The notes beneath the pieces were generated by a model. That model was not told the DNA's origin. It was given only the letters and a program-made list of their open reading frames with translations, and made no database searches. The translations under genes were made by a program, and so were the position numbers. From Leucoraja erinacea (taxonomy: Eukaryota): 64,000 nt of DNA. The stretch is taken from NCBI RefSeq assembly GCF_028641065.1, contig NC_073390.1, positions 37,200,001-37,264,000 on the forward strand, in the 5' to 3' direction. This document shows, piece by piece, positions 1-32,127 of this stretch (its first letter is position 1; every line of letters starts with the position of its first letter).

Positions 1-121
1 GTCAATCTATGTTTAATTTATTGGAAAGTGAAAGATGCCAAGGAATATCTCAGAGTTCAAGTAGCACCGTGTTAATTGCCACCTCTGTGTATTTCAAAAA
101 TGGGAGCGAATGAAAAATAAA
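1..121 (+). other. Distal 3' UTR and poly(A) signal of an upstream CCL20-like paralog (coding exons outside window)
   Basis: Position 1 onward is nearly identical to 9562 onward and 16584 onward, the 3' UTR ends of copies A and B. AATAAA at 116-121 matches 9677-9682. Confidence 0.85.
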
Positions 122-529
122 GATATTTATTTCAGATTGCTTCTTCGGTAATTTATTTTGCCTCACTAACGGAAAGCTAGCCAATGGTAAACCACTTACA
201 GCATTGTCAGCAGAAGGGTAAACTAAAGCTCATCAAAAACATCTTTCCAACTTCATCAGACACGAGATGGAATAAAATAAAGAGCAGGGGGATTGTTCCT
301 ATTGTTCGGAATCCCAGGAAAACCAACTTGAGGGATTCCAAAAATTCAATGTGAGGCTTCTAGTATTGAATGCCTAACTGAATTATGACTTTTGAAATCC
401 AGAATGGAACTTTAATAAACTTTGTAAAATTCCTGCGTCAGCTTCTTCAGGTGTCTACATTTAAACTGGTTTCTTGTTTTACCCTGGCACCTGGTCTTTA
501 TTAAAGCAAATGTTTTGACCAAAAGTAAC

Positions 530-1313
530 AGATTATTATCTAAATGATCAGATTATTATCTAAATGGTGTCAAGTTGGGAAAAGGGGAAGTACAACGGGA
601 TCTGGGGGTCCTTGTTCATCAGTCACTGAAAGTAAGCATGCAGGTACGGAAGGCAGTGAAGAAAGCGAATGGCATGTTGGCCTTCATAACAAGAGGCGTT
701 GAGTATAGGAACAAAGAGGTCCTCCTGCAGTTGTACAGGGCCCTAGTGAGACCACACCTGGAGTATTGTGTGTAGTTTTGGTCACCAAACTTGAGGAAGA
801 TCATTCTTGCTATTGAGGGAGTGCACATAGGTTCACAAGGTTAAATCCCGGGATGTCGGGCCTGTCATTAGATTGGAAAGGCCGGGCTTGTATACTCTGG
901 AATTTAGAAGAATGAGAGCGGATCTTATTGAAATATATAAAACTATTAAAGGTTTGGACATGCTAGAGGCAGGAAACATGGTACCGATGTTGGGGCAGTC
1001 CAGAACCAGGGGCTATAGTTTAAGAATAAGTGGTAAGCCATTTAGAACGTAGATGAGAAAAAACATTCACACAGAATGTTGCGAGTGTGTGGAATTCTCT
1101 GCCTCAGAGGGCGGTGGAGGCTGGTTCTCTGGATGCTTTCAAGAGAGAGTTACATAGAGCTCTTAGGGATAGCGGAGTTAAGGGATATTGAGAGAGGGCA
1201 GGAACGGGGTACTGATCGTGGATGATCAGCCATGATCACATTGAATGGTGGTGCTGGCTCGAAGGGTCGAATGGCCTACTATTGCTCCTATTGTCTATGT
1301 CTATTGTCTATTG
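530..1313 (+). mobile_element. CR1-type LINE, 5'-truncated 3' fragment (decayed)
   Basis: ORF 575-775 (QRDLGVLVHQSLK...[14 protein letters not shown]) is the CR1 ORF2 C-terminus, followed by a (TTGTCTA)n tail. The empty site is visible in the paralogous unit near 17108. Confidence 0.9.
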
Positions 1314-1829
1314 AACAATGAAACTAAGTAATTAAATTGCCTCTGACATTTGCTGAAGTTAGCTTCAGTTTTCTAACTAATCTCAGAAATAGGCATATCA
1401 TTATTCTCAATGCAGTAAATATTGAAATATCGTATGTTCTGCTAATTTCTGCTTGGATTGAGGTGCCTGAAAGTTCAGAGTCTTAGAGTCATTGAGCACA
1501 GAAACCTGCCTTTGGACCTATCCTGGTCATCAAGTACCAATCTATCCTAATCCAGTTTCCCACCATTTTGACCATAACCTTCTACGCCATGGCATTTAAA
1601 GGATTCATTCAGATACATATTTAATATTGTGAGAGCACCTGTCTCTACTACCCCACAGGCAGTGTAGTCCAGATTTCACCCACTCTCTCAGCAATAAATA
1701 AAAATCCACAAATACTCACTAAATCACTTACCCTTAACCTCTGCTCTGGTTAAGGACACTTCTGCTGAAGAGAAATGTTATCACCATCTTCCCAATCTAG
1801 TCTTCTCTTTCAACAGAGTGCACTCCCAT

Positions 1830-2150
1830 TTCCCCCACTAGCCCACCCCCATTTCTAGTCTAACCCACCATCCCCTTCTACTCATATCCCTCCCTCTGGC
1901 CTCATATTTCTCCCATGTTCTCTCCTTATCCTACACCTTTTGGCCTTTGCATCTCCAGCCTTTGTCAAATCATCCGCCCCCTTGCCTGTATCCACCTATT
2001 ACTTGCCAGACTTTGTCCTGCCCCACTTCTGTTCTACCTTTCCCTCCACCTCAACAGAAGAGATCCGACCTGAAATGTTGCCTATCCATGTCTTGCAGAA
2101 ATATTGGCAAAGATCCTGCTGAGTTTCTTCAGCACTTTGTGTTTTTATTC
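1830..2150 (+). mobile_element. Penelope-like element terminal-repeat remnant (degenerate hammerhead region near 2055-2080)
   Basis: A pyrimidine-rich tract is followed by ...GACCTGAAATGTTGCCTATCC...CTGCTGAGTTTCTTCAGCACTTTGTGT, the same repeat family seen at 44296-44385. Confidence 0.55.
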
Positions 2151-3285
2151 TCCTCTTTTTTTTCGTAAACTTCACTTGGGTAATCCCCTTCGCCCTTTCC
2201 ACTCTATTGAAAACAAACCCGATCTATTCAACCACCTGCCCTGTTCCATTGCCTGAAATGGAAAATGACCAAATTGGGAACAACTCATATCGACCTGCAT
2301 TCTATATTAGAACAGCATGTTTCTCAACAACTTAATTGAATTATTTTTTTATATACATGGACTGCATTCATTTTTCATGCCGTTTTCATCTCCTGCACAC
2401 TTTTAATCCATTCAAAATCTAGATTTGCATCAAATTTCATTGATGAGTTGAGGAGCTTAAATGTGCACGCAGTGTTTGATTTGACCCGACAACATAAATG
2501 GCAAGGTAGAGATATTGTTTGAGCTGAAAGGTGCGACAAGTTGCTGGATGATTCAAGTTGCTCTGCTGTTATGCTCCATGAACGTAACAGCCTCCCTACA
2601 GCCTCTCTAATTTCCAACAGATTTCTGGTGACAAAGGAGGCCTTTGGGCCTTGCAGGTCAATGCCAGCTCTCGGTGCAATCCCAGCAGTTCAACAATCTT
2701 TAATTGCTCGTGTAACGCATTGTCTCTTACATGCCCATCAGCTCCACCTTGATTCTCATGCCACACACGTACACCAGAAGCTATCTGTAGTCAGCAATTA
2801 ACCCTAGCAGCATGTCATCAACATGTGGAATGAATCCACAGCAACCAGGAAAAATCCATATGGGTGCAAGCAGAATGTTTGCTCTGCACAACAACAGCCC
2901 TCAAGTCCACCTCCAGTCAAAGAAGAATAGCATCAGCTTCCCCACTGTTTTAACATCACTGCAACATTTCAGTCCTGCAATTGTTCCAGCTCAATCCATC
3001 CAACACTCTTTTTCAGGCCTTCGCATCCTTCCAACGGTCTGGTAGTTAGAATTTGCAATTACCCTCGTGAGCTCAAATCATGATTTGGAAGTTGGGTTAA
3101 ATAGAGCAATATTTTTATGCATCTTGCTATTTGTTTTTGATTGTCATATATATTGTAAAGGGAAGATGTTCTGTGACGTTCACCGAGGCAGTGATTAGCC
3201 TTCCCTGTCATCCCAACATCCAACATGCTATTGTGCAGTGGAACTTGTGCAGTGGAACTCGGCTTGTGCAGTGACACTTAAAGGC

Positions 3286-4800
3286 CTTCTCTCTGATAGG
3301 CTCCAGTACAAACTGCTCTAAGAATCCATCACGGAGGCACTCCACAAACTTCCTTTCTTGGGCTCCAGTACCAACCTGATTTTCCCAGTGTCCCTGCATG
3401 TTCAAATCTCCTATAACAACCGTGGCATTACCTTTACTAAATGTCAATTTTAACTCTTGATTCAACTTGCACCCTATATCCAGGCTACTGTTTGGGGGCC
3501 TGTAGATAATTCCCATTAGGGTCTTTTTACCCTTACAATTCCTTAGTTCAATCCATACTGACTCCACATCTCCTATTTCAATGTCACCCCTTGCAAGGGA
3601 CTGAATTTCATTCCTCATCAACAGAGTTTCCCCACCCCCTCTGCCCACCTGTCTGTCTTTTCGATAGGAGGTATACCCTTGAATATTCAGTTCCCAGCCC
3701 TGGCCCTCTTGCAGCCATGTCTCTGTAATTCCAACAACATTATACTTGCCAATTTCTAACTGAGCCTCAAGCTCGTCCAATTTATTTCTTATACTTCGCG
3801 CATTCATATACAACACTTTGACTTCAGAATTCACCTCCCATCTCACACCGCTCACAATTGGCTCTGATTGTACTCTCTTATCCCTTCTCGAACTTTCATT
3901 CCCATTAATTTGGGAGTCTTGTGTAACTTTTCTTATACTCACTTCCCCTTTAACTCCATCTTTATACTCCCAATTTGTCAATCCCTCCCCTAGCAAACCT
4001 GCCTGCCAGAAAGTCGCCCCCCCTCCAGTTAAGGTGTAACCCATCCCTTTTGTACAGGTCACCCCTACCCCAGAAGAGATCCCAGTGTCGATAAAACTAA
4101 ATCCTTGCATCCTGCACCAGACCCTCAGCCACACATTAAGACCTCCTATCTCCCTGTTCCTGTTGTCACTAGCACGAGGTACTGGAAGCAATCCAGAAAT
4201 AACCACCCTAGAAGTCCTGTTTTTCAGTCTTCTTCCTAACTCTGTAAACTCTCGTTGCAGAATTGCTTTCTCTTCGTCCCGATGTCGTTTGTGCCGACGT
4301 GCACAACTACTGCCGACTGTTCACCTTCCCTCGCGAGGATGTTCTGAATTTGGTTTGTGATATCTTGAACCCTGGCACCAAAGATGCAACAGACCATTCT
4401 CAAGTCTCGCCTGCCTCCACAGAATCTCCAGTCCGCACCTCGGACAATGGTGTCACCCACCACTATGGCTCTGCCCGACGTCGATCTCGCCGGGCGAGTC
4501 TCATCTCTAGGATTGGAGCCGCTGACCTGTCCACTGCTCGGACGGGAAGCGCCATCTGCCTGGACAGCTCCCACGAGGGTGTAACTGCTTTCATTTGGCA
4601 CAGCAGCCTGGGTCTCCTACACTCCACGGTTACTCCCCTTTCTCTCAGTCATTCACCTTTGTTCTTCCTGTATCCTTTGCAAGACAACCTCCTGCAGGTC
4701 CTGTCCAGGTAACTTTCGTTATCTCGGATGGCCCTGAGGTCATCCAGCTGCTTCTCCAGTGCCCGAACACGGTCCTTCAGGAGCAGGACCAGCAGCCAGT
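3286..4800 (-). mobile_element. CR1-type LINE 5' portion: ORF1 SGNH/GDSL-esterase region and start of ORF2 APE endonuclease (frameshifted)
   Basis: ORF1 motifs RAIVVGDTIVRG...VVVHVGTNDIG and VISGLLPVPRA. Endonuclease motifs VLYMNARSIRNK...GITETWL...YRKDR...IYRPPN...VIGDLN. Confidence 0.9.
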
Positions 4801-5573
4801 AGCTCCATCTGTGTCCCTGGCCACCCACTTAACATCTTTTCACCTATTTATCAATGTTTCGGCTATTGGAACAACTTTCACTTCATAGCAACATGATATA
4901 TTTATTCCTTTATGTTTATGAAAATCCTCTCCATATTTTCATAATATATTTCATATTTTCATATGAGGGAGGAGGCCATTGAGCCTTTGAAGCCTACGTC
5001 AGCTTTCAGTGCAATCCCATCAGTAAACCTTTAATTTTCTTGTGCAACGTATTCTCTCTGAGCTGCCCATTGACTCCACCCCGATTTGCATGCCACACAC
5101 CTACTCCGGAAGCTACAGTATCTGCAGTCATTAATTAAACCGAGCAGCATGTCATCAGGATGTGGGTGGAATCTGGAGCTACCAGGAAAAATCCATATGG
5201 GTGCAAGCAGAATGTTCGCACTGCACAAAGACAGCACTCAAGGCCATTTCCAGTCAAAGAAGACCAATATCATGAACTAAGTGTACACAAATTAAAATCA
5301 CATAATGCCATTTAGGTTGACGTAACTTGCCTTTGGAAGCACATCATGACTGCGACCTTTCATTCCTGGAATAGTGTCAGCTGAACCCTTCAGCACTCTT
5401 ATTCAGATTTTAGCATTCTTTCAAAAGTCTGGTACTTAGAATTTGTTGCTTCACCCCTGGGCAGATCCTGTGCTTTGTATAAGGTCTCGACGACTTTAAC
5501 TTTAGTGTGTCAAAGTTGGATTAAATAGACCAATATTTTTTGCACTGTACTGTTTGATTTGTGTGTGATATCT

Positions 5574-6953: not shown

Positions 6954-7534
6954 TACAAAGCAAAGGTGTATGATATCTTCCACCAAGTCTGTGATTTGCC
7001 TCTAGGGTTTTCCCAGCATCTGGTCTGGTATCGTGCAGGGGAACCTTGGCTTGTGGCACCCAAACGTAGGTTATGCCAATCTAAATGGCTGATGTATGAT
7101 TTTCATTGATGTGCTTAGTTCATGGATAGCACCAGCCAGAAATATGAATGCACAGCCATTGTGAAGTCTGCTTATGTTTTAACTAAAATAGTACAGCTTG
7201 GAAGATTCCAGCCCATGGTCCCGTGAGTGACTTTCCTGACTTTAGTCCTGAGTTGCACATGGAGGATTAGTTGAAGTAATGTACGAAGATGTGGGAGGGA
7301 GGGATAAGATAAGGGGCTTTAGGAAGATTCACTGTCAGGAAATATTTTAATATAACTATATATGAGACAGGTTCCAAATGTAGTATTACTTCACAGGCGC
7401 GGACCTGGACATGATTTTGCTTTTAAAGGAGGGTGGGTCACTGTGGACCTTAGAGGTCCTGCAGAGGCCTATTCCTTCATGAGTGACCCATGAATCCACA
7501 GACCAAGATGCAAGGACCAAGATCATGACATTGA

Positions 7535-8359: not shown

Positions 8360-8426
8360 GGAAAATCCAGAGGTCATGTGTTGCATTTCCTTGTTTCAAA
8401 ATATTTCCCAATCAAAGTGTATATAA
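8360..8426 (+). promoter_or_regulatory. Proximal promoter of CCL20-like copy A: NF-kB-like, ETS-like, TATA
   Basis: GGAAAATCC at 8360-8368, CATTTCCTTG at 8384-8393 (AGGAA on - strand), TATATAA at 8420-8426. The same order is kept in all four copies. Confidence 0.75.
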
Positions 8427-8517
8427 GCAGTTGACAGAATCAAAAAAGCACATCAGATCACCGTTACCAACTCAACGTACTCCACAGCAAAATTATCTTA
8501 TAAACCAGTGATCAACA

Positions 8518-9288
8518 ATGAACACTCTCAAGAGACTTCTCCCAGCAGCTATGCTCTCATTGATTGTACTGAACATGTTTGGCAATACACTATCAGGTAA
8601 GCCTTAGTGATGCCTTTTAACACATTCCCACAAATTAGATTTTAAAGAAAGTTATTTACTTGTGCTACATGCATGACTATATTTTTCATTCTTTCAGCTG
8701 CAGCATACAGAGACTGCTGTCTCGCATATTCGAGGAAGAGACTGCCACAAAAATTGATCTCTGGTTACATGGAGCAAAAATCCAATGAAATATGTGAGAT
8801 AGATGCAATTATGTAAGTACAATTCAATAATATATTCCTTATGATTGTAGAATAATATTTATTAGAATTTTAAATTAATAGAACCACCAATTTAAATATT
8901 TTATAGATTCTACACCGTCAGAGGAAGAGCAGTGTGTGCAGATCCTGAACACCATTGGGTGAAGAAAACACTGAATTTTTTGAGGTAAGCAACATAATAA
9001 ATGACTGATAACATTGAGAAAGCTACAGCAGTGATCTGAAATGTATAAAGTGTTGCCAATCAAGAGTAGATGAGGGTTGCATCCACAATCAAACTTCTGA
9101 ATATAAATCTGAAAATTTTCATTTTCTTTGCAAAGCTGCTGTAAAATGTAAACTACTTAGCAATATTTGATATTTAGATATTATTGACAGCATTTTTATT
9201 GATTTCTTTCATTATAATATTTGATTATTTGAAACATTGATCTCTTTGTCTTCACAGCAAAAAGCTGAGAAAAATGTCACAAGATTGA
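8518..9288 (+). CDS. CCL20: C-C motif chemokine 20-like, copy A (4 exons, 100 aa)
   Basis: Exons 8518-8596, 8698-8812, 8907-8984 and 9258-9288, all GT-AG with phases 1, 2, 2. Protein MNTLKRLLPAAMLSLIVLNMFGNTLSAAAYRDCCLAYSRKRLPQKLISGYMEQKSNEICEIDAIIFYTVRGRAVCADPEHHWVKKTLNFLSKKLRKMSQD. It has a signal peptide, four Cys, the DCCL motif and the 4-exon layout of vertebrate CCL20. Confidence 0.93.
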
Positions 9289-9682
9289 GCCATGTCTCGA
9301 GGAAAGAAGTTGGCTGCATTTAGCTGGATTTATTTCAAGAATCCATCCTGCATAGTATCTATGCCCAGACAATGAAAGTTTATTAAAACTTATGTAATTT
9401 GTATCAATCACAATTGATGTGTAAGCCCCTTTATTTATAGTATGTTCTACTGAACTTAATGAAGTAACTTAACTGTATATTCTTATTTAATTTTTTGCTA
9501 CATCATTTTGGTTGTGAATTAAATGACGATGAATGTAATATTATCACCTGGATATGTGTCAGTCAATCTATATTTAATTTATTGGAAAGTGAAAGATGCC
9601 AAGGAATATCTCAGAGTTCAAGTAGCACCGTATTAATTGCCACCTCTGTGTATTTCAAAAATGGGAGCGATTGAAAAATAAA
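9289..9682 (+). promoter_or_regulatory. AU-rich 3' UTR and poly(A) signal of copy A
   Basis: Several ATTTA/TTATTTAT motifs. AATAAA at 9677-9682 is followed by a U-rich tract. Equivalent signals at 16699-16704, 24066-24071 and 31453-31458. Confidence 0.75.
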
Positions 9683-10089
9683 GATATTTATTTCAGATTT
9701 CTTCTTCGGTAATTTATTTTGCCTCACTAACGGAAACCTAGCCAATGGTAAACCACTTACAGCATTGTCAGCAGAAGGGTAAACTAAAGCTCATCACAAA
9801 CATCTTTCCAACTTCATCAGACACGAGATGGAATAAAATAAAGAGCAGGGGGATTGATCCTATTGTTCGGAATCCCAGGAAAACCAACTTGAGGGATTCC
9901 AAACATTCAATGTGAGGCTTCTAGTATTGAATTCCTAACTGAATTATGACTTTTGAAATCCAGAATGGAACTTTAATAAACTTTGTAAAATTCCTGCGTC
10001 AGCTGCTTCAGGTGTCAACATTTAAACTGGTTTGTTGTTTTACCCTGGCACCTGGTCTTTATTAAAGCAAATGTTTTGACCAAAAGTAA

Positions 10090-11975: not shown

Positions 11976-12057
11976 AGAAGCTCCATTGGTGTCACTGGCC
12001 ACCCACTTAACATCTTTTCACCTATTTATCAATATTTCGGCTATTGGAACAACTTTC

Positions 12058-15456: not shown

Positions 15457-15547
15457 GCAGTTGCCAGAATCAAAAAAGCACATCAGATCACCATTACCAA
15501 CTCAACGTAATCCACAGCAAAGTTATCTTATAAACCAGTGATCAACA

Positions 15548-16313
15548 ATGAACACTCTCAAGAGACTTCTCCCAGCAGCTATGCTCTCTTTGATTGTACT
15601 GAACATGTTTGACAATACACTATCAGGTAAGTCTTAGAGATGCCTTTTCACACATTCCCACTAATTAGATTTTAAAGTTATTTACTTGTGCTACATGCAT
15701 GACTATATTTTTCATTCTTCCAGCTGCAACATACGGCGACTGCTGCCTCGCTTATTCAAAGAAGCGACTGCCACAAAAATTGATCTCTGGTTACATGGAG
15801 CAAAAATCCAATGAAATATGTGAGATAGATGCAATTATGTAAGTACAAATCGATAATATATAGCTTATGATCATAGAATTATATTTATTAGGTTTTTCAA
15901 TTAATAGAACAACAACTTAAATATTTTATAGATTCTACACCGTCAGAGGAAGAGCAGTGTGTGCAGATCCTGAGCACCATTGGGTGAAGAAAGCACTGAA
16001 TTTTTTGAGGTAAGCAACATAATAAATGATTGATAACATTGAGAAGGCCACAGCAGTGATCTGAAATGTATAAAGTGTTGCCAATCAAGAGTAGATGAGG
16101 GTTGCATCCACAATCAAACTTCTGAATATAAATCTTTAAAAAATCATTTTCTTTGCAAAGCTGCTGTAAAATGTAGACTACTCAGCAATATTTGATATTT
16201 AGATATTATTGACAGCATTTTTATTGATTTCTTTCATTATAATATTTGATTATTTGAAACATTGATCTCTTTGTCTTCACAGCAAAAAGCTGAGAAAAAT
16301 GTCACAAGATTGA
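15548..16313 (+). CDS. CCL20: C-C motif chemokine 20-like, copy B (4 exons, 100 aa)
   Basis: Exons 15548-15626, 15724-15838, 15932-16009 and 16283-16313, all GT-AG. Protein MNTLKRLLPAAMLSLIVLNMFDNTLSAATYGDCCLAYSKKRLPQKLISGYMEQKSNEICEIDAIIFYTVRGRAVCADPEHHWVKKALNFLSKKLRKMSQD. Confidence 0.93.
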
Positions 16314-17706
16314 GCCATGTCTCGAGGAAAGAAGTTGGCTGCATTTAGCTGGATTTATTTCAAGAATCCATCCTGCATAGTATCTATGCCCAGACAATGA
16401 AAGTTTATTAAAACTTCCGTAATTTGTATCAGTCACAATTGATGTGTAAGCCACTTTATTTTTAGTATGTTCTGCTGAACTTAATGAAGAATAACTGTAT
16501 ATTCTTATTTAATTTTTTGCTACATCATGCTGGTTGTGAATTAAATGACGATGAATGTAATATTATCACCTGCATATGTGTCAGTCAATCTATGTTTAAT
16601 TTATTGGAAAGTGAATGATGCCAAGGAATATCTCAGAGTTCAAGTAGCACCGTGTTAATTGCCACCTCTGTGTATTTCAAAAATGTGAGCGAATGAAAAA
16701 TAAAGATATTTATTTCAGATTTCTTCTTCGGTAATTTATTTTGCCTCACTAACGGAAACCTAGCCAATGGTAAACCACTTACAGCATTGTCAGCAGAAGG
16801 GTAAACTAAAGCTCATCACAAACATCTTTCCAACTTCATCAGACACGAGATGGAATAAAACAAAGAGCAAGGGGATTGATCCTAAAGTTCAGAATCTCAG
16901 GAAAGCCAACTTGAGGGATTCCAAACATTCAATGTGAGGCTTCTAGTATTGAATGCCGAATAGAATTATGACTTTTGAAATCCAGAATGGAACTTTAATA
17001 AACCTTTTAAAATTCCTGCGTCAGCTGCTTCAGGTGTCAACATTTAAACTGGTTTCTTGTTTTACCCTGGCACCTGTTCTTCATTAAAGCAGGTGCTTTG
17101 ACCAAAAGGAACTATGAAACTGAGTAATTAAATTGTTTATGACTCATTTGCTAAAGTTGGCTCCAGTTTTCTAACTAATATCAGAAACAGGCATATCATT
17201 ATTCTCAATGCAGTAAATATTGAAATATCAGATGTTCTGCTGATTTCTGCTTGTATTGAGGTGCCTTAAAGTTCAGAGTCTTAGAGTCATTCAGCACAGA
17301 AACCTGCCTTTGTTACTCTCCTGGTCATCAAGTACCCATCTATCCTTATCCAGTTTCCCACTATTCAGACCATAACCTTCTACGCCAGGCAGTTAAAGGA
17401 TTCATTCAGATACATCTTTAATATTGTGAGAGCACCTGTCTCTACTACCCCACAGGCAGTGTATTCCAGATTCCTCCCACTCTATCAGCAATAAAAAAAA
17501 ATCCCCAAGTACTCACTAAATCACTTACCACTAATCTTTGCTCTCTGGTTATGGACACTTCAGCTGAAGGGAAATTTTAGCAATATCCACCCAATCTATT
17601 CTTCCCTTTACAACTGGGTGCACTCCCACATCTCCCCAGCCCCCCCCCCCCCCCCCCCCCCCCCCCTTTCTATTCTCCCCACCCCTTCTACTCATATACC
17701 CTCCCC

Positions 17707-21102: not shown

Positions 21103-21641
21103 CCAATAAAAAAGCACCATCCTGACCAGTTCTCAGCCTGTGGGGTACAACTCCACTTGGAACCTGTCTGAGGTATAGCTTTTAAATCAAATACTTCCCA
21201 CTACAGTGAATGTTCATCAAGCTCTTTATCCTACCCATCCCTCCCATATCCTACATATGCTCTTCATTCTTCCAACTAATCTCCCATGTTTAACTCAGGC
21301 TACAGTCAGGAAAGTCTGTTCCAGGACAAACTGAGACTGATTCCCAGCTTCTCAGCCATACCCCATTTNNNNNNNNNNNNNNNNNNNNNNNNNNNNNNNN
21401 NNNNNNNNNNNNNNNNNNNNNNNNNNNNNNNNNNNNNNNNNNNNNNNNNNNNNNNNNNNNNNNNNNNNNNNNNNNNNNNNNNNNNNNNNNNNNNNNNNNN
21501 NNNNNNNNNNNNNNNNNNNNNNNNNNNNNNNNNNNNNNNNNNNNNNNNNNNNNNNNNNNNNNNNNNNNNNNNNNNNNNNNNNNNNNNAGTGGAGTTGTAC
21601 TCCACAGGCTGAGAACTGGTCAGGATATTGCTTTTTTATGG
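21103..21641. repeat. Long inverted repeat spanning an assembly gap
   Basis: 21588-21641 is the reverse complement of about 21103-21157. The rest of the left arm is the inverse of the sequence at 24340-24590. Confidence 0.75.
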
Positions 21642-22193: not shown

Positions 22194-22259
22194 GGAAATT
22201 CCAAGCGTCACTTGTTGCATTTCCTTGTTACAAAAATTCCCAACCAAAGAGTATATAAA
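22194..22259 (+). promoter_or_regulatory. Proximal promoter of copy C
   Basis: GGAAATTCC at 22194-22202, then CATTTCCTTG, then TATATAAA at 22252-22259. Confidence 0.75.
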
Positions 22260-22349
22260 CAGTTGACAGAATCCCAAAAGCACACCAGTTCTTCATTATC
22301 ATCACAACATATTCCGCAGCAAAGTTATCTTATAAACCAGTGATCAGCA

Positions 22350-23687
22350 ATGAACACTCTCAAGAGACTTCTCCCAGTAGCTTTGCTATCATTGATAGTA
22401 CTGAGCATGTTTGGTAATTCGCTTTCAGCAGGTAAGTCCTAGAGATGCCTTTTAATTCATTCCTACTAATCAGATTTGAAGAAAGATATTTACTTGTACT
22501 GTATGCATAACTATATTTTTCATTCTTCCAGCTATGACATACGGAGACTGCTGTCTCGCTTATTCAAAGAAGCGACTGCCACGAAAATTAATCTCTGGCT
22601 ATGTAGAGCAAAAATCCAATGAAATATGTGAGAAAGATGCAATTATGTAAGTACAAATAAACAATATATTACTGATGAGCATAGAACAACACTTATTACA
22701 ATGTTCAATGAATGGATCAATAATTTAAATGTTTGATAGATTCTACACCATCAGAGGAAGAGCAGTGTGTGCAGCTCCTGAGCAGCAATGGGTGAAGAAA
22801 GCATTGTATTTTTTGAGGTAAGACCAAGCAACATAATAATTAACTGAGAACATTGAGAAAGCTGCAGCAGTGATCTGAAATGTATGAAGTGTTGCCAACA
22901 TTTGGGGCCCATGGTGGTGCAGCGGTAGAGTTGCTGCCTAATGCCCCTGTCCCACTTAAGAAACCTGAAAGGAAACTTCTGGCGACTTTGCGCCCCACCC
23001 AAGGTTTCCTTGCGGTTCCCAGAGGTTGCAGTTGGTTGCTGGAGGTTGCAGGTAGTGGAAGCAGGTAGGGAGACTGACAAAAACCTCTGGGAACTGCACG
23101 GGTGGGGCACAAAGTCTCCAGAGGTTTCTGTTCAGGTTTCCTAAGTGGGACAGCGGCATTATTGCGCCAGAGACCCAGGTTCGATCCTGACCATGGGTGC
23201 TATCTGTACGGTGTTTGTCCATTCTCCCCGTGACCTGCGCGAGTTTTCACCGGGTGCTCCAGTTTCTGCCCACACTCCAAAGGCATGCAGCTTTGTAGGT
23301 TAATTGGCTTGGTATAAATGTAAATTGTCCCTAGTGTGTGTAGGATAGTGTTAGTGTGCGGGGATCGTTGGTCGGCACGGACTTGGTGGGCCGAAGGGCC
23401 TGTTTCCGTGCTGTATCCTCAAACAAAACTAAACTAAACAATCAAGAGTAAATGAGGGTTGCATCCACAATCACACTTCTGAATGTAAATCTCAAAAATA
23501 TTATTTTCTTTGCCAAGTTGCTGTAAAATGCAAACAACTACTCAGTAATATTTGATATATAGAAGAAATTATTGACAGGACGTTTTCATTGATTTTTTTT
23601 CTTGTTATAATATTTGATTACCGTATTTGAAACTTATTAATCTGCTTGTCTTCCAGCAAAAAGCTGAAAAAAATGTCACAAGATTGA
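22350..23687 (+). CDS. CCL20: C-C motif chemokine 20-like, copy C (4 exons, 101 aa; most divergent)
   Basis: Exons 22350-22431, 22532-22646, 22740-22817 and 23657-23687, all GT-AG. Protein MNTLKRLLPVALLSLIVLSMFGNSLSAAMTYGDCCLAYSKKRLPRKLISGYVEQKSNEICEKDAIIFYTIRGRAVCAAPEQQWVKKALYFLSKKLKKMSQD. Confidence 0.92.
22899..23441 (+). mobile_element. tRNA-derived V-SINE (HE1-like) in intron 3 of copy C
   Basis: A-box-like TGGTGCAGCGGT, B-box GGTTCGATCC, V-domain TTCTCCCCGTGACCTGCG...GGGTGCTCCAGTTTC, a CR1-like 3' end and an (AAACT)n tail. Other copies show the empty site TTGCCAATCAAGAG. Confidence 0.9.
22942..23158. mobile_element. MITE (PIF/Harbinger-like) nested in the SINE
   Basis: Long TIRs TGCCCCTGTCCCACTTA.../...TAAGTGGGACAGCGGCA with 3-bp flanks TAA/TTA. 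Same family as 57176-57400. Confidence 0.8.
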
Positions 23688-24764
23688 GCCGCGTCTCGAG
23701 GAAAGAAGTTGGCTGCATTTAGCTGGATTTATTTCACGAAACCTTTCTGCACAGTATCTGTGCCCAGACAATAGAAGTTTGTTAAAACTTCCATAATTTG
23801 TATCACTCACATTTGATGTGTAAGCCACTTTATTTTTAGTATGTTCTACTGAACTTAATGAAGTATATTCTTATTTATTTTTTGCTACATCGTTCTGGTT
23901 GTGAATTAAATGACAGTGATTGTAATATAATCACCTGTATGTGTGTTCAGTCAATCTAAGCTTGACTTATTGGAAAGTGAAACGTAAAGAGGAATATCTC
24001 CGAGTTTAAATGTCACCATGTTGCTTGCCACCATTGTTGTTATACTCAAATGTCAGTGAATGAAAAATAAAGATAATTATTTCAGTTTTGTTCTTCAGTA
24101 ATTTATTTTATGAGATCTTGTTTGCCTCACTAACGGAAACCCAAATAATGATAAAACACTTACAGCATTGCCACAAGAGCTCAACACATACACCTTTCCA
24201 AGTCATGAGATCTGTCATTACGCCAACCTAAATGAATCTTCAGAGATTTTCATTCATGTGGACTTCGTTCTTAGATGGCACCAGCCAGAAACATGAATGC
24301 ACAGCCCTTGTGAAGTCTAATTAAGCTTCAACAAATAGGCTTCAGCTGAGAATCTATCTCAGATTGTCCTGGAAGTGACTTTCCAGACTGCCGCTCTGAG
24401 TTGCACATGGGATATTAGTTGAAGGAATGAAGAGTGTATGTGAGATGTGGGAGGGATGGGTAGGATGAGGAGCTACAGGAAGATTCACTGCAGTGGGAAG
24501 TGCTTGACTGTAACTACAGTATTTCTGAGACATTTACAAGTGTAGTACTAACCCACAGGCTGAGACCTGGTCAGGATGTTGCTTTCTTTATGGAGGGGAC
24601 TCCACAGACCTTAGAATTACTGCAGGGGCCAGTTCCTTCATGAGTGACCTTCAATCCACAGACCACACGGCAAGGATCAAGATCATGAAGTAGAAACAAC
24701 CAACTACACATGCTGGATACACACAAGGACACAAAGTGCTCAGCAGGTCAGGCAGCATCCCTTG

Positions 24765-24870
24765 TATGGGCGGACATCGCTTTTAAACCATGGGGGGGGG
24801 ACACAATTTCCTGATGGTACAATTACATGTGCATGACAACTAACAATATTATCTCCTCCCACTCCCTCCC

Positions 24871-24938
<68 letters not shown>

Positions 24939-25562
24939 ATCTTACACACATCTTACACACATCTTACTATAATGATCCTGGGACCTGGGGAAGATTTGAG
25001 AAACAGTGAAAGAAGGCCAAAAGTGGTGTAATTTAAAATAGATATATATTTGCACTGAGGCCTAACATCTAGGAGCTGGTGGCCTCCAACTGCAATCGTC
25101 CTTGAGGGCTCCGGTCGCTGAGCCTGTGGACTTAGCATCACGGAGCTGGCTGACTTCGGAGGCTGTGGTGGAGTTGCGGATGCGACTCAACTTTGGAGGC
25201 TTCAGCCGCGGGCCCTGTGGACTGTAATAACGGGCGCTCGCAGATCCCTGGTTGGTGACTGACTTTTGGGAGATCCAGCAACAACAGCAGCTTCTTCCAC
25301 CCCGAATCGTGGGGCTTGAATTGGCCCAATCGCGGGGCCTTTCATCGCCCGGCACGGCTTAAAATTGGCCGCGGGATCTACCATCGCCCGGCGGGGGCTT
25401 CAACATCGAGAGCCTCGATCGCCTCGACGCAGCAGTTTGACTGCCTGACCGAGGGAGATATAGCAAGGGGTAGATAACATGGGGTGGATTGTCTCACACC
25501 TCTCAAAACATTGGGGGGGACACGCACTCCCCCCCCCATCTCCCCAGGGATTTCCACCTATA
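24765..25562. mobile_element. Putative non-autonomous DNA transposon with imperfect TIRs, containing poly-C/(CA)n and a retroposon fragment
   Basis: Ends TATGGGCGGACATCGC and GGGATTTCCACCTATA are imperfect inverted repeats. It splits a Penelope remnant that is contiguous at 7600-7635. Confidence 0.5.
24872..24962. repeat. Poly-C tract plus (CA)n microsatellite
   Basis: Directly visible. Confidence 0.95.
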
Positions 25563-26775
25563 TGGATAGATGAGGTTTCTAACTAGACAAAGTGGGACCC
25601 TTTGGGTCCCTGTCACACAGGAGGCTTGGTCCCCCAACGCAATATTCCACCATTCACCTAGAGCCCCCAAATGCACAGGCGCAGCTCATTTCCCCTCATC
25701 CCTAGCACTTTTGCCCCCTCCTCCACCCTCCCTCTTCTTTCCCCTCTCCTCCTCTCCTCCCCAAATCTATCCCTCACCTCTCCCTCCCTCTCCTTTCCCC
25801 TACCCGCAGTCATCCATCCCTCCCTCCCTCCCTCCATAACTCTGTTCCCCTCCCTACTCCCCTCCTCTCCCACTATCCACTCTCCTCCCCCACCCCAGGA
25901 TCTCGAGGCTGCCGCTCCACTGCCTTCTTGCATACCCCGGAGGAGCATCAGCCATCAGCGCCCTCAGAGCCAGGCCTTGGTTCGGCCCGGAAGCACCAGC
26001 AGCTACAGCCGCGCCGGCGTGTGGGCGGGGGAGGGGGGAGAGCTCGCAGAAAAGATGGGGGAAGAGCCATGGGGGAGAAGGGGGCTACCACGGGGGAGAG
26101 GGCAGGAGCCAGCGAGGGGTCCAGAGGGGAAAGGGGTTCAGCTGTTGTGCGTCGCGATGGCAGTGCGTTTGGGATTTATAGCGGGTGCTGGATTCTCTCC
26201 TCCGTCGGGATCAGACTCTCCGTTTTCCGTTTGGTGACATTGCCGCGCTGCTTGGCTGCTTCGGATCCCCCCCGCTCTTCTGGTCGCTCCACTTTCCTCT
26301 GCTCCAGTAAAGACGCGATGGCGTAGGAAGGGGAAGACCATCCTGGGGAGTTACAGGGGAAGAGACTATTCCGCGCGGCGCTGGAAGGCAGGAGAAGAGA
26401 TTGAAATCTGATGAACTTTGATGACATTCAACCGATCGGAACGAAACTTGGTGGACTCACAGCACAAGAGAACGGTGAGTGAACTGGTGAAAAATCGTAG
26501 CGCTATCGCGAATCATTTTTGCGCAAATAGAATGACCGCCAAACCGGAAGATAAGATCAGAGTTTTAGTTATGTATTAGACTAAGTGGGACCCGTTGGGT
26601 CCCATGTTCACATGGGAGGGCTGGTCCCCTATGCAATATTCTACCTCTCCACCAATTCCAATATTGATGGCCACTGGGGGGGGGGGGCTTTCTGTAGTGC
26701 TAGTATGGATGTTGTGGGCCAAAGGGACTGGTTTCCAGAGGGCTAGTATGGACATTGTGTACCGAATGGATTATT

Positions 26776-26880
26776 GGGCTGGCAGCTCAGTCACTCTGGC
26801 TTGGTGGGCTGGCAGCTCAGTCACTCAGGCCTGGTGGGCTAGCAGCTCAGTCTCTCAGGACTGGTGGGCTGGCAGCTCAG
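26776..26880 (+). repeat. 30-bp minisatellite, about 3.5 copies
   Basis: Unit GGGCTGGCAGCTCAGTCACTC(T/A)GGC(T/C)TGGT. Confidence 0.9.
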
Positions 26881-27332
26881 AAACTGCCAGAAATTCTGCC
26901 CAAAACAGGTGAGAGACTCCGTGAGAGAGAAGGGGGAGAGTTTGGAGAATCAATTTTAGACATTTTTCATCTTTTCCACAGATCACACCAATGAACAAGG
27001 AAAGTCTTTCCTGGCTTGGATCTCACAGGGAGCCAATCAAGGGAGGGAGAAAAATACTGGGGTGAGGTTTAATACTTACAGGGGGAATACTTACTAATGG
27101 GCCCATAGGGACTCCTCCTGGGCTTGTACAGGCCTGAGGGGCCGAAGGGAGATAAAAATAATCTGAGTGAATTCTCAGTGAAATGCACTTTTTGTGGACT
27201 TTTCCAGGCCTAGCACGGGCCTTTTGGGCCATAATTCTCCTCCTGGGCTAATATGGGCATTTGGGGCAATAGAGACTGGTTTCTGGGCTAATAGGGGCCT
27301 TGTGGGCCGAAATGAGTTTCAGGAAAGCCAAA

Positions 27333-27578
27333 GGTGGGCTGGCAGTTCACTCACTCATTCACGATTGGTAGGTTGACATTTCCCTCACTCACTCACTCAC
27401 TCACGGCTGGTAGGCTGGCAGTTCACTCACTCATGGCTGGTGGGCTGGCAGTTCATTCACTCATGGCTGGTGGGCTGGCAGTTCATTCACTCACGGCTGT
27501 TGAGCTTGCAGTTGACTCACGGCTGGTGGGCTGGCAGTTGATTGACTCACAGTTGGTGGGCTGGCAGTTCACTCACGG
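27333..27578 (+). repeat. Degenerate ~30-bp minisatellite
   Basis: Unit GGCTGGTGGGCTGGCAGTTCACTCACTCA(T/C), related to the 26776 array. Confidence 0.9.
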
Positions 27579-27600
27579 CTATTCCTTGAAATTCCATTTA

Positions 27601-27773
27601 AAGCAGAGTGCAGGCCACCAAATTCATTTCATACCATTTTAAGCAGAGTGCAGGCCACCAAATTCAATTTCATACAATTTCAAGCAAAGTGCAGGCCACC
27701 AAATTCAAATGCAATTTTGTACCATTTCAAGCAGAGTGCTGGCCACCAAATTCAAATGCAATTTCATACCATT
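27601..27773 (+). repeat. 40-48-bp minisatellite, 4 copies
   Basis: Unit AAGCAGAGTGCAGGCCACCAAATTCA...ATACCATTT. Confidence 0.9.
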
Positions 27774-28420
27774 TGGGCTTTATACTGCAGGCCCCTGGGA
27801 AGGGAAGTCTTCATTGTGGCGATTGACAGGCGAGAGGACCAATCAGCTGATCTCAAGATTTTTTAAATATTCATAACTTTTTTATTTTTCATCGATCGGA
27901 AAAATCCTCAGGACTGTGAGTAAGATGGCCAAAATCATAGTGATATATGGTAGCATTTTTTCTAAAATCAATANNNNNNNNNNNNNNNNNNNNNNNNNNN
28001 NNNNNNNNNNNNNNNNNNNNNNNNNNNNNNNNNNNNNNNNNNNNNNNNNNNNNNNNNNNNNNNNNNNNNNNNNNNNNNNNNNNNNNNNNNNNNNNNNNNN
28101 NNNNNNNNNNNNNNNNNNNNNNNNNNNNNNNNNNNNNNNNNNNNNNNNNNNNNNNNNNNNNNNNNNNNNNNNNNNNNNNNNNNNNATTGGCAAAATAATG
28201 ACAGAAGCATTAATTGTTTTGTACTTTCATGTACGTCTTGTAAGAGGTGACTATTGTCACACACAACAATGAATCAGAGGCACTGCATTTGATGTGCGCT
28301 TATTATTTTAGAAGTGTTTGCACTGAACAAATGCAGAATGCTTTGTGTGCTTTCTTGTTTGTATTGTGCCTGCTGCTCAGCTTTTACAATAAAACAAAAG
28401 TGACGTGAAAAAAAAAAAAA

Positions 28421-29550
28421 GAGAGAGACTCCAAACACTAGCAACAGTAATTAAAGATTATCAAAACCCTCTTGATTCCCCAATTACCTTGGAAGAACTG
28501 ACCATAAAAATAAAATCTCTCCACTCAAAGAAAGCCTGTGGTCCAGACAGCATCAAAAATGAAATGCTCAAGTACAGCACTCCGGAGATGCAGGACATAG
28601 TGCTGTTCAACATCATACTACGATCAGGTTACTTCCCTGATATTTGGTGCCAAGGTCTTATTTCACCCATTTATAAGAATGGAAACAAATTAGACCCAAA
28701 TAATTATCATGGCATCTGTGTCAGTAGCTGCATAGGGAAGTTATTCTGCAGTGTCATAAACAACAGAATGCAGGATTTCCTTAACAAACACAACATTCTC
28801 AGTAAAAACCAAATTGGCTTCCTCCCAAAACACCGTACCACTGACCACATTTATACCCTCCACACCCTCATTGAAAAACATGTACACCAAACGAAAAATG
28901 GGAAAATATTTGCCCATTTTATTGACTTTGAGAAAGCATTTGACTCTATTTTGCATGAAGGGCTCTATTACAAACTCGTCGGGTGTGGTATAGGAGGAAA
29001 GGTATATGACCTTATCAAATCAATGTATCTGAATAATAAATGTGGCGTTAAAATTGGGGACAAACGCACTGATCTCTTCGCCCAGAGAAGAGGTGTCCAG
29101 CAAGGCTGCAATCTGAGCCCGACACTGTTTAATGTATATATCAACGATTTGGCAGTAAAGTTGGACCAGAGCACAGCGCCGAGCCTCTGTCTTCTGGACG
29201 GAGAGGTAAAATCCCTGTTTTATGCGGATGACTTAGTTCTGCTGTCCCCCACAGAACAGGGACTGCAGCAACAGTTGGACCTACTTGGTGAGTACTGCCA
29301 AAATTGGGCCCTGGCAGTAAATCTAAAGAAAACCAACATCATGATTTTTCAGAAAAGACCCAGATGCCAGGAAGATAAATACAAATTTACTCTCAATGGT
29401 AATGTTATCGAACACACTATGAGCTATACTTACCTTGGTCTAACTATTTCAACATCAGGGAGCTTCAATATGGCAGTGAATGCACTAAAAGAGAAAGCTC
29501 GAAGAGCTCTGTATGCAATAAAAAGAAGATTCTACAACATCCAAATCCCA
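28421..29550 (+). mobile_element. Non-LTR retrotransposon RT fragment, RTEX-like, open frame but truncated at both ends
   Basis: ORF 28405-29610 carries KACGPDSIKNEMLK, DPNNYHGICVSSCIGKLF, QIGF...TTDHIYTL, FIDFEKAFDS, GVQQGCNLSPTLFN, YADD and YTYLG. Host unit sequence resumes at 29551. Confidence 0.85.
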
Positions 29551-30120
29551 GAGGGGGACATTACAGACTTCATAAGTACGTCAGAGGCCCACCTGTTTCT
29601 TCATGAGTGACCCGTGAACCCACAGACCAAGCTGCAAGGACTAAGATTATGATGTTCCACTCAAGCACGCAGGAAAGCAAAAGTCAGTGACTTTGCGGAA
29701 GTTGAACCATTTCCCTTTTTCTTTTTTTTTTTAAACCTGAAGTAAATTACATAATGCACAAGGTGTGCTGAATGATTACATTTCTAAGCTGATTTCTGAT
29801 TAATGATCTCTGCCCCAAATTATTGTTTCATTTTGCACAAAATTTTACAAAGGATAATTGGAATAAAATATTCACTTTTTTGATCAATTTTTTCAGCAGT
29901 GCTGACCCAATTTGTATTACTGGCCAAAATTGAAAGACTGTTCTCCTTAGATTTTCAATATGTTGTGTTACTAATTTTAAATCTAAATGGAAACAACATA
30001 GGAAATAAACAAAACATGCTTTCAATCGATCTTGGACAGTGAAACAAAAGTGTATGGAAATAATTGTAAACTTAGACTACTAAGATCTATTTAGAAACAC
30101 CCTGATGTAATCAGGTGAAG

Positions 30121-30199
30121 TGACGTAGAGGAAAACCCAAAGATGTCACGGAAGGCATTTCCTTGCTTCATAAAACTTCCCAATCAAAGTGTATATAAA
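30121..30199 (+). promoter_or_regulatory. Proximal promoter of copy D
   Basis: TGACGT at 30121-30126, GGAAAACCC at 30130-30138, then CATTTCCTTG, then TATATAAA at 30192-30199. Confidence 0.75.
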
Positions 30200-30289
30200 C
30201 AGTTGACAGAATCCCCAAAACACATCAGATCTCAGTTGCAACCTCAACATTCTCTACGGCAAAGTTATCTTATAAACCAGTGATCAGCA

Positions 30290-31059
30290 ATGAACACTCT
30301 CAAGAGACTTCTCCCAGCAGCTATGCTCTCATTGATTGTACTGAACATGTTTTGTAATACACCATCAGCAGGTAAGTCCGAGATATGCCTTTTAACTCAT
30401 TCCTACGAATCAGATTTGAAAATATATATTTGATTGTGCTACATGCATGACAATATTTTTCACTTTTCCAGCTGCAACATACGGCGACTGCTGTCTCGCT
30501 TATTCAAAGAAGCGACTGCCACAAAAATTGATCTCTGGTTATGTGGAGCAAAAATCCAATGAAATATGTGAGAAAGATGCAATTATGTAAGTACAAATAA
30601 ACAATACATTGCTTTTGAAAATAGAACAAAACTTATTACAATGTTCGGTTAATGGATCAACAATTTAAATATTTTATAGATTCTTCACCGTCAGAGGAAG
30701 AGCAGTGTGTGCAGATCCTGAGCACCATTGGGTGAAGAAAGCACTGAATTTTTTGAGGTAAGCAACATAATAATTTGACAAAGCTACAGCAGTGAAATGA
30801 AATGTATAAAGTGTCGCCAATCAAGAGTAGATGAGGGTTGCGTCCACAATCAAACTTTTGAATATAAATCTCAAAAATATAATTTCTTTTGCAAAGTTGC
30901 TGTAAAATGTAAACAACTCAGTAATATTCCGATATTTAGAAGAAGTCTTTGACAGCATGTTTTCATTGATTTTTTTCTTGTTACAACATTTGATCACTTG
31001 AAATTTATTGATCTCTTTGTCTTCACAGCAAAAAGCTGAGAAAAATGTCACAGAATTGA
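30290..31059 (+). CDS. CCL20: C-C motif chemokine 20-like, copy D (4 exons, 101 aa)
   Basis: Exons 30290-30371, 30472-30586, 30680-30757 and 31029-31059, all GT-AG. Protein MNTLKRLLPAAMLSLIVLNMFCNTPSAAATYGDCCLAYSKKRLPQKLISGYVEQKSNEICEKDAIIFFTVRGRAVCADPEHHWVKKALNFLSKKLRKMSQN. Confidence 0.93.
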
Positions 31060-32127
31060 GCCGCGTCTCAAGCCGGGTCGAGGGAAGAAATTGGCTGCAT
31101 TTAGCTGGATTCATTTAAAAAAAAACCTTCCTGCATAGTATCTATGATAATAGAAGTTTAGTAAAATTTCTGTAATTTGTATCACTCACAATTGAGCCAC
31201 TTTATTGTTAGTATGTTCTACTGAACATGAAGAAGTAACTTAAATGTATATTCTTATTTATATTTTGCTACATTGCTACAACAAACTGATTGTGAATTAA
31301 ATGAAGGTAATTGTAATATAATCACCTGTATGTGTATCAGTCAATCTAAGCTTGATTTATTGGAAAGTGAAAGATGACGAGGAATATCTCTGAGTTTAAG
31401 TAGCACCGTGTTAATTGCCACCTTTGGTCATTTTAAATGGCTGCGAATGAAAAATAAAGATAATTACTTCAGTTTTCTTCTTCGGTGATTTATTTTATGA
31501 GATCTCGTTTGCCTCACTAACGGAAACCTAGTCAATGATAAACCACTTGCAGCATTGCCAGCTCATTACATACACCATTCCAACTTCATCAGCCATGAGG
31601 CGGATTGTTCCCATTGTTCAAAATCCCAGGAAAGCCAACAAGGGATTCCAGAGGTCCGACCTTTAACCGTTGCCCTCTGGTTATGGACATCTCAGGGGAA
31701 ATGTTGTCAACATCTACCCGGTGTAGTTTCCTTTTTCACCTGTGTTTTTTCTTGGGCTTCATACAGTTTTCATTTCCTTTTTTCAACTCCCTTCCACTTT
31801 TAATGCATTCAAAATCTAGGTTTATGTCAAATTTCATTGGTGAGCTTAAATGTGCATGAAGTTTTTGGTTTGACAACAATTTATATGGCAATGCAGAGAT
31901 ACTCTGTGGACTGCCAACAAAGTGTCACAAATTGCTGGATAATTCATTGATTGTCCCTCCGGTGGCTGATTATCACACAGCAAAAGCCTTTCACTGTACG
32001 TCTGTACATGTGACAATAAACTCAAAGTCAAAGCTCTGCTGGTCTGCTCTGTGAATGTGACTGCTTCCCTTCTGCCTTTGTAATTTCCAATGAATTTCTG
32101 GAGTCCCTCACTAAGTCTTGTGGTTAG

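What the first reader, a model, noticed from the sequence alone, without database searches (positions are those of the whole stretch)
1..31460. Tandem array of at least five CCL20-like chemokine genes invisible to the ORF track
Seen: four intact 4-exon genes with canonical splice sites, promoters and poly(A) signals, plus the 3' UTR of a fifth. They sit in head-to-tail units starting at 1, 9562, 16584, 23950 and 31340. Known: mammalian CCL20 is a single-copy gene whose product is the chemokine ligand of CCR6 and is also a cationic antimicrobial protein. Inference: a recent lineage-specific expansion of the mucosal CCL20-CCR6 axis in a skate or ray. All visible copies remain intact while the spacers decay, which suggests selection for dosage or diversification. 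I cannot tell whether this array is already described.
Basis: partly seen in the sequence, partly recalled or inferred. Interest (0 to 1): 0.75.

Follow-up and report, generated by a model that had tools for sequence, protein, structure and literature searches.

The report
Skate CCL20 chemokine tandem gene array
This is a real head-to-tail cluster of four intact, spliced immune-signal genes (plus the tail of a fifth) whose proteins match skate CCL20-like chemokines already in public annotation, and it is most likely an ordinary, long-lived duplicated gene family of sharks and rays rather than a new or recent invention.

Summary
Four 4-exon CC-chemokine genes lie head to tail (ATG at 8518, 15548, 22350, 30290), and the 3' UTR end of a fifth lies at 1-140. 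All four products are identical to RefSeq little-skate 'CCL20-like' proteins, so the genes are already annotated. CCL20 is the best sequence and fold match. Public transcript contigs confirm the three introns and show more than one copy type expressed.

The array is not a recent one-species expansion. Copies C and D each pair with their own Amblyraja orthologue, and a Leucoraja-only clade is rejected (p-AU 3e-6). Two or more CCL20-like genes were found in most sharks and rays retrieved, and published tables give zebrafish five and Xenopus three. dN/dS of 0.24-0.46 points to purifying selection, not diversification.

Small additions I did not find in print: copy B appears to have taken its receptor-activating N-terminus from copy D by gene conversion; and elasmobranch CCL20 splits into a neutral, conserved class and a class that is cationic and amplified in rays and skates, with only the latter found in skates. 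Synteny, receptor binding and antimicrobial action were not tested. Ordinary; low interest.

The parts
1..140 (+). 3' end of the 3' UTR of a fifth, upstream copy (AATAAA at 116); its coding exons lie outside the window
   Evidence: 96.4% identity to A's UTR and flank over 1710 nt; AATAAA at the matching place; the matching region of copy C is inside a transcript contig by its length
8360..8426 (+). Proximal promoter of copy A: kappaB-like site 8360-8368, Ets-like core, TATA box at 8420
   Evidence: a transcript contig begins at 8450; binding not tested
8450..9700 (+). Gene A: coding exons 8518-8596, 8698-8812, 8907-8984, 9258-9288; AATAAA at 9677; product identical to XP_055502147.1
15390..16720 (+). 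Gene B with promoter (kappaB-like 15390, TATA 15450): coding exons 15548-15626, 15724-15838, 15932-16009, 16283-16313; AATAAA at 16699; product identical to XP_055502146.1
15720..15765 (+). Probable gene-conversion tract in B (acceptor of intron 1 and start of exon 2: mature N-terminus, CC motif, N-loop), D-like inside an A-like gene
   Evidence: B=D at 53 of 55 sites and B=A at 46 of 55 here, against B=A 413/434 and 957/996 on either side; run of 8 informative sites, permutation p 8e-5
22194..24090 (+). Gene C with promoter (kappaB-like 22194, TATA 22252): coding exons 22350-22431, 22532-22646, 22740-22817, 23657-23687; AATAAA at 24066; product identical to XP_055502143.1; most divergent copy
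22898..23438 (+). High-copy repeat insertion (SINE-like, label inferred) in intron 3 of C
   Evidence: intron 839 nt against 271-273 in the other copies; thousands of contigs pile on it in 4 of 4 runs
30130..31475 (+). Gene D with promoter (kappaB-like 30130, TATA 30192): coding exons 30290-30371, 30472-30586, 30680-30757, 31029-31059; AATAAA at 31453; product identical to XP_055502145.1; last chemokine gene in the window
21369..21587 (.). Assembly gap (219 N) between B and C
27974..28185 (.). Assembly gap (212 N) between C and D; C therefore sits on a 6.4-kb piece between two gaps
28393..29610 (+). LINE reverse-transcriptase fragment in the C-D spacer
   Evidence: Pfam RVT_1, E 5e-35

Best explanation
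The window holds the downstream end of a skate tandem array of spliced CCL20-type chemokine genes, likely built by repeated unequal crossing-over from one of the two or three CCL20 genes of the shark-ray ancestor and kept by purifying selection. Shown: the gene anatomy, splicing, identity to annotated CCL20-like proteins, dN<dS, and copies of different ages (C oldest, then D, with A, B and the upstream unit youngest). Inferred: each copy makes a secreted, cationic chemokine of about 73 residues, probably induced through its conserved kappaB/Ets promoter, that would attract CCR6-bearing leukocytes, since the acidic CCR6-contact positions and the short N-terminus are kept. The copies are probably largely redundant, giving more or differently timed product, and turn over by birth, death and occasional gene conversion.
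For: Anatomy. Identity to RefSeq proteins, 4 of 4 with 0 differences. Best solved-structure match is CCL20 (mouse 70.9 and human 60.8 bits, against 48.0 CCL3, 46.6 CCL21, 46.4 CCL17, 44.6 CCL19 for A; CCL20 also first for C). AlphaFold model (mean pLDDT 84.5) has CCL20 chains as its top 4 Foldseek hits, rmsd 1.0-1.4. Human D5, E30 and D33, named as CCR6 contacts in PMC7295996 (passages), align to D32, E57 and E60 of A and are the same in B-D. Four exons are described as a CCL20 trait (PMC13523247, passage); NF-kappaB and Ets sites as conserved promoter features (PMC3827052, passages). Age: D pairs with Amblyraja XP_032887285 (99/97), C with XP_032887286 (91/72); Rhinoraja copies fall inside the A/B/D group to the exclusion of C (99/99); Leucoraja monophyly rejected, p-AU 2.9e-6. 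dN/dS 0.24-0.46 in 6 of 6 pairs, one-sided Fisher p<0.05 in 5 of 6 (pairs not independent). Spliced contigs across all three introns; contigs matching C at 133/134, 112/112 and 252/254 alongside contigs of another copy type.
Against: The deep tree is weak: the branch joining these genes with tetrapod and teleost CCL20 has 81/86 support, and AU tests did not reject grouping the chondrichthyan genes with CCL19/21-like outgroups (p 0.22 and 0.19). No flanking gene was recognised in the window, so synteny is untested. No contig could be assigned uniquely to A, B or D: one matches A and B alike over 73 nt, others are a type absent from the window. The runs' organisms are coded and may be related skates. 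The one raw-read RNA run laid gave 0 reads from about 6% of the run, which the tool calls no test. No binding, chemotaxis or induction data exist here.
Confidence: 0.82

Rival explanations
1. A recent, species-specific burst of duplication created the array.
For: The upstream unit, A and B are 93-96% identical over kilobases including inserted repeats. Rhinoraja and stingray copies each form their own shallow clades, so young bursts do occur.
Against: C and D have orthologues in another genus; a Leucoraja-only clade is rejected. C and D flanks are only about 72-85% identical to A/B. Sharks and rays generally carry two or more CCL20-like genes.
Confidence: 0.05
2. The copies are kept because they have diverged in function (different receptor, tissue or antimicrobial target), with gene conversion shuffling the receptor-activating N-terminus.
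For: N-termini differ among copies (AAYRD, ATYGD, MTYGD before the CC) and C and D carry an extra codon there. B's N-terminal tract is D-like. Net charge ranges +5 to +8. C and D lineages persist across genera. Xenopus ccl20a and b differ in tissue pattern (PMC8811506, passage).
Against: dN/dS is well below 1 in all 6 pairs. PMC7295996 reports that residues 1-4 of CCL20 tolerate substitution, so the N-terminal differences may be neutral. Promoter elements are the same in all four copies.
Confidence: 0.25
3. Part of the array is an assembly artefact: haplotypes or misplaced pieces joined in tandem.
For: Two gaps flank copy C. The upstream unit and A are 96.4% identical where they can be compared.
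Against: A-B, and the upstream unit-A join, are gap-free. A and B differ at 24 of 395 intron sites and by kilobase insertions. C and D have separate orthologues in an independent assembly, which lists 7 accessions; a third skate lists 8.
Confidence: 0.05
4. The genes are not CCL20 orthologues but another DCCL-type CC chemokine (CCL19, CCL21 or CCL25 group).
For: Exon 2 alone scores about equally on CCL20 and CCL21 (27.9 against 26.9 bits). AU tests do not reject the grouping.
Against: Full-length scores favour CCL20 by 14-24 bits over CCL21. The profile search returned, after chondrichthyan genes, tetrapod and teleost proteins that are CCL20 wherever the name gives a family; none of the 47 is named CCL19, 21 or 25. 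There is no long C-terminal tail. Best trees group them with CCL20.
Confidence: 0.05

Closest known systems
RefSeq Leucoraja erinacea 'C-C motif chemokine 20-like' XP_055502143/145/146/147 (and 142)
   Same: Letter-for-letter identical to the products of C, D, B and A; 142 is a fifth protein not encoded in the window.
   Different: None; this is automatic annotation without functional study as far as the searches show.
Mammalian CCL20 (MIP-3alpha, LARC), ligand of CCR6
   Same: Four exons, short N-terminus ending in Asp before CC, acidic residues at the D5, E30 and D33 positions, same fold, cationic C-terminal helix, kappaB and Ets-like promoter sites.
   Different: Single copy in human, mouse, cow, elephant, opossum and wallaby (PMC3568907 supplement table); about 46% identity over the domain; receptor use not shown in skates.
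Multi-copy CCL20 of zebrafish (5), Xenopus tropicalis (3), platypus (2), medaka (2), Tetraodon (2) and rainbow trout (10 CCL20-like)
   Same: Duplicated CCL20 genes, some adjacent on one chromosome; the trout count and 'local gene duplication' come from a reference title only.
   Different: Independent duplications; teleost copies are far more divergent from each other than the 83-95% identical skate copies.
Shark and ray CCL20-like clusters (Triakis MIP-3alpha BAD51710 and BAD51713; Heptranchias, Pristis, Hemitrygon, Mobula and others)
   Same: Same gene family; the skate array groups with the ray genes of the more variable class.
   Different: Those species also carry a neutral, highly conserved class (90% against 76% core identity across 8 sharks), of which no skate member was retrieved.

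Membership tests
CC chemokines (Pfam IL8) | Signal peptide, adjacent first two cysteines, four-cysteine pattern, three strands plus C-terminal helix | tested here: met
   Cysteine pattern in 4 of 4; Pfam IL8 above cut-off for both core exons of A; predicted fold. The signal peptide is judged by eye and by the predicted N-terminal helix; no signal-peptide program was run.
CCL20 group | Closest sequence and structure among human and mouse chemokines is CCL20 | tested here: met
   A and C tested; A modelled
CCL20 group | Four-exon gene | tested here: met
   trait stated in PMC13523247. From recall, CCL19 and CCL21 also have four exons, so this is not exclusive.
CCL20 group | Short N-terminus ending in Asp before CC; acidic residues at the CCR6-contact positions | tested here: met
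   the cleavage site is inferred, giving 5-6 residues before CC
CCL20 group | Forms a clade with tetrapod CCL20 to the exclusion of CCL19/21/25 | tested here: inconclusive
   Best tree does so at 81/86, but AU tests do not reject the alternatives. Outgroups were unnamed proteins labelled by best solved-structure hit; no verified CCL25, 27 or 28 was included.
CCL20 group | Conserved synteny (SLC19A3, DAW1 neighbourhood) | not testable with these tools
CCL20 group | Binds and activates CCR6; direct antimicrobial activity | not testable with these tools
   Needs bench assays; net charge +5 to +8 is only compatible with antimicrobial action
Birth-and-death tandem gene family | Copies of different ages, cross-species orthologues mixed with species-specific clades, purifying selection | tested here: met
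   No pseudogene was seen in the window, so 'death' is inferred from copy lineages missing between species.

The most novel reading that the evidence does not exclude
Elasmobranchs split CCL20 into a neutral, strongly conserved single-copy chemokine and a second class that is cationic and repeatedly amplified in rays and skates. Skates lost the conserved class and rely on an array of the cationic one as an inducible mucosal antimicrobial and chemoattractant, with gene conversion swapping the CCR6-activating N-terminus between copies to make new ligands such as copy B.
Probability: 0.15. Interest if true: 0.5.

Novelty: already known. Interest (0 to 1): 0.2.

Why it matters
Little as it stands: the genes are annotated and duplicated CCL20 is known in other non-mammalian vertebrates. 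It is a tidy example of birth-and-death evolution of an immune gene in cartilaginous fish, and it corrects the impression from the one-copy elephant-shark entry in the 2013 table that the group has a single CCL20. If the neutral-versus-cationic split proves functional, sharks and skates would offer a natural test of whether CCL20's chemotactic and antimicrobial roles can be separated.

Tried and rejected
Whole-genome search for synteny, CCR6 copy number and upstream copies: no genome is held. Search for neighbouring genes in 31.5-64 kb with a crude splice-site scan: 37 candidates in the whole window; it recovered exon 2 of all four copies and exon 3 of two, and no other candidate looked like a gene by eye; those candidates were not scanned against Pfam. 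Four long non-repeat ORFs (25665-26323, 38202-38797) had no Pfam hit. The run search listed no holder on record as RNA; the one raw-read RNA run gave 0 reads and is no test. The second lay was swamped by the intron-3 repeat, so its joint table shows no splice joints for C. Conversion between C and D: no significant run (p 0.25-0.58), although both have Lys where the Amblyraja C orthologue has Ile. Positive selection: not seen in pairwise ratios; site models were not run. The kappaB motif is common on its own (17 matches against 10 expected), so only its conserved position counts, and that is shared by descent. Literature: searches listed no paper on the skate array or on elasmobranch CCL20 classes; the library lacks most subscription journals, and the trout paper (PMID 31568810) was not held. 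Earlier findings of this scan: nothing. No complex prediction was sent: no skate CCR6 sequence was in hand.
Full report
OBSERVATION. Aligning them and splicing at the shared boundaries gives four complete genes on the + strand: A (coding 8518-9288), B (15548-16313), C (22350-23687) and D (30290-31059). Each has four coding exons, GT..AG introns of phases 1,2,2 and an open product of 100 or 101 residues with the CC pattern. All four have TATATAA 98 nt before the ATG, a kappaB-like site at -156 to -160 and an Ets-like core between them. AATAAA lies at matching places in five units: 116, 9677, 16699, 24066 and 31453. The window therefore opens in the last 140 or so bases of a fifth copy's 3' UTR. 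No other chemokine exon is in the window, so D is the last copy for at least 33 kb downstream. Two assembly gaps flank C.

EXPRESSION. The run search gave 17 rows, none of the holders on record as RNA; I laid 8 of them. On gene A, one 612-nt contig of run X1 skips exactly the three predicted introns, X2 shows two of the three joints and X7 one; such contigs can only come from spliced RNA. An X2 contig begins at 8450, 30 nt after the TATA box, with what I recall to be a template-switch adapter. X17, the only raw-read run, gave 0 reads from about 6% of the run (no test). The X1 contig and one X2 contig share variants found in none of A-D, so at least one further copy type is expressed; another X2 contig matches A and B alike with 0 differences over 73 nt. 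On gene C, X3 and X4 have contigs matching its exon 1 at 133/134 and 112/112 and its 3' UTR at 252/254, next to contigs of another type; by its length the X3 UTR contig ends near 24090, just after the AATAAA at 24066. The listed pieces of X5 and X8 were of the other type only. The organisms are coded and may be related skates. 'Only one copy is transcribed' is thus unlikely, but A, B and D were not resolved singly.

IDENTITY. Both core exons of A hit Pfam IL8. The four products are identical to RefSeq Leucoraja erinacea 'CCL20-like' proteins XP_055502147 (A), 146 (B), 143 (C) and 145 (D); a fifth, XP_055502142, is not in the window. Against solved structures the best natural hits are mouse and human CCL20 (70.9 and 60.8 bits), ahead of CCL3 (48.0), CCL21 (46.6), CCL17 (46.4) and CCL19 (44.6) (CCL20 also first for C). 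The AlphaFold model has human CCL20 chains as its top four matches. Human D5, E30 and D33, CCR6 contacts in PMC7295996 (passages read), align to D32, E57 and E60. The deep tree is weaker: the genes group with tetrapod and teleost CCL20 at 81/86 support, and AU tests did not reject grouping them with CCL19/21-like outgroups (p 0.22, 0.19; 76 columns, unnamed outgroups labelled). Synteny could not be tested. I file them as CCL20 on sequence, fold, gene structure and contact residues, with the tree inconclusive.

AGE AND SPREAD. By accession, related proteins number 5 in Leucoraja, 7 in Amblyraja and 8 in Rhinoraja; some accessions share one sequence and I did not check that each is a separate gene. 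D pairs with Amblyraja 285 (99/97) and C with Amblyraja 286 (91/72); Rhinoraja, a different family, falls inside the A/B/D group to the exclusion of C (99/99); a Leucoraja-only clade is rejected at p-AU 2.9e-6 (24 of the retrieved proteins used). So the array predates the Leucoraja-Amblyraja split and probably the split of the two skate families. Turnover continues: the upstream unit, A and B are 93-96% identical over kilobases, while C and D flanks are about 72-85% identical to them. Beyond skates, two or more CCL20-like proteins were retrieved for most sharks and rays seen, e.g. Heptranchias 5, Pristis 3, Pristiophorus 3, Hemitrygon 5 plus 1 gene, and two Triakis MIP-3alpha records; Narcine gave one. 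Their tandem layout is inferred from shared contig lengths and neighbouring accessions, not from coordinates. The supplement tables of PMC3568907 list CCL20 copies as zebrafish 5, Xenopus 3, platypus 2, medaka 2, Tetraodon 2, elephant shark 1 and six mammals 1. PMC8811506 describes clustered Xenopus ccl20a and b (passages). A reference title reports 10 trout CCL20-like genes from genome and local duplication (paper not held).

SELECTION AND CONVERSION. Pairwise dN/dS is 0.24-0.46, with dN below dS at p<0.05 in 5 of 6 non-independent pairs. This is purifying selection; nothing here indicates diversifying selection. B is A-like throughout (413/434 and 957/996) except for a tract at 15720-15765, where it matches D at 53 of 55 sites and A at 46 of 55; eight consecutive informative sites side with D (permutation p 8e-5, uncorrected for choosing this trio). 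The A-type N-terminus is shared with Amblyraja and all Rhinoraja proteins, so the simplest reading is conversion of B by D. The rival is a burst of changes in A; outgroup evidence is at protein level only. The tract covers the mature N-terminus and N-loop, but PMC7295996 reports tolerance of changes at residues 1-4, so the swap may be neutral.

TWO CLASSES. Trees separate a conserved class present in sharks and rays from a more variable set; joining skate genes with the ray members of the conserved class is rejected (p-AU 2.5e-4). The variable set was not recovered as one clade across sharks and batoids. The conserved class has net charge 0 to +1 (19 of 19 proteins) and 90% core identity across 8 sharks against 76% for the other class; skate proteins are +5 to +8 (15 of 15), other ray members +2 to +7, shark members 0 to +7 (median +1), tetrapod CCL20 +3 to +10 (class labels and cleavage sites assigned by me). 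Cationic charge therefore looks ancestral rather than a skate invention. No skate member of the conserved class appeared among the 47 hits or in the clusters listed; that search is word-limited, so loss is only a lead.

MECHANISM. Shown: intact spliced genes, several types transcribed, copies of different ages, purifying selection. Inferred from mammalian CCL20: inflammatory induction through the kappaB site (PMC3827052 passages; PMC13523247 passage for gene structure), secretion, attraction of CCR6-bearing leukocytes, and possibly direct killing of bacteria by the cationic helix (mammalian activity recalled; only a reference title seen). Inferred from repeat-rich head-to-tail units: growth by unequal crossing-over. 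The most likely reason for retention is redundancy or dosage with birth-and-death turnover; functional divergence is the main rival.

WHAT IS KNOWN. The genes are annotated under the right name, and local CCL20 duplication is published for frogs and teleosts. Searches listed no paper on this array or on elasmobranch CCL20 classes; most were seen as listings only, and subscription journals are largely missing. Passages of PMC4690017, PMC2416438, PMC6238376 and PMC9138301 did not describe it. One supplement of PMC3568907 (a .doc file) could not be read. Earlier scan notes held nothing.

VERDICT. Interest 0.2.

Noticed in passing
window 22775: Copy C has Ala where A, B, D and its Amblyraja orthologue have Asp (residue 78); every contig laid there in 4 of 4 runs reads the Asp base, so this may be an allele or an assembly error.
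   Followed up: partly
window 30290-30371: Copy D has an extra Cys and a Pro in its signal peptide, shared with Amblyraja XP_032887285.
   Followed up: no
window 8698-8706: Copy A has a second possible acceptor 6 nt into exon 2 that would drop two N-terminal residues; human CCL20 has a 3-nt alternative acceptor at the same intron. Contigs laid used the first acceptor.
   Followed up: partly
window 8950-8984 (loose end in run X2): A transcript end encodes His at residue 88, as in Rhinoraja copies and in none of the five RefSeq Leucoraja proteins: an unannotated further copy, or the run is from another skate.
   Followed up: no
window 25100-27780: GC- and CpG-rich block in the C-D spacer with a repeated motif near 25583 and 26579 and 30-nt and 41/47-nt tandem arrays; two long ORFs there have no Pfam hit. 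Probably a repeat element.
   Followed up: partly
window 28393-29610: A 405-codon open LINE reverse-transcriptase fragment with no match to the other reverse-transcriptase pieces of the window in the self-comparison; family and origin not examined.
   Followed up: no
window 31500-64000: 33 kb of repeats (reverse-transcriptase fragments, short interspersed repeats, a GA-rich array at 63350-63730) with no recognisable gene.
   Followed up: partly
P0085-P0233: Many unnamed database proteins hold 2-8 chemokine domains in one chain, likely gene predictions fusing tandem chemokine genes in other species.
   Followed up: no
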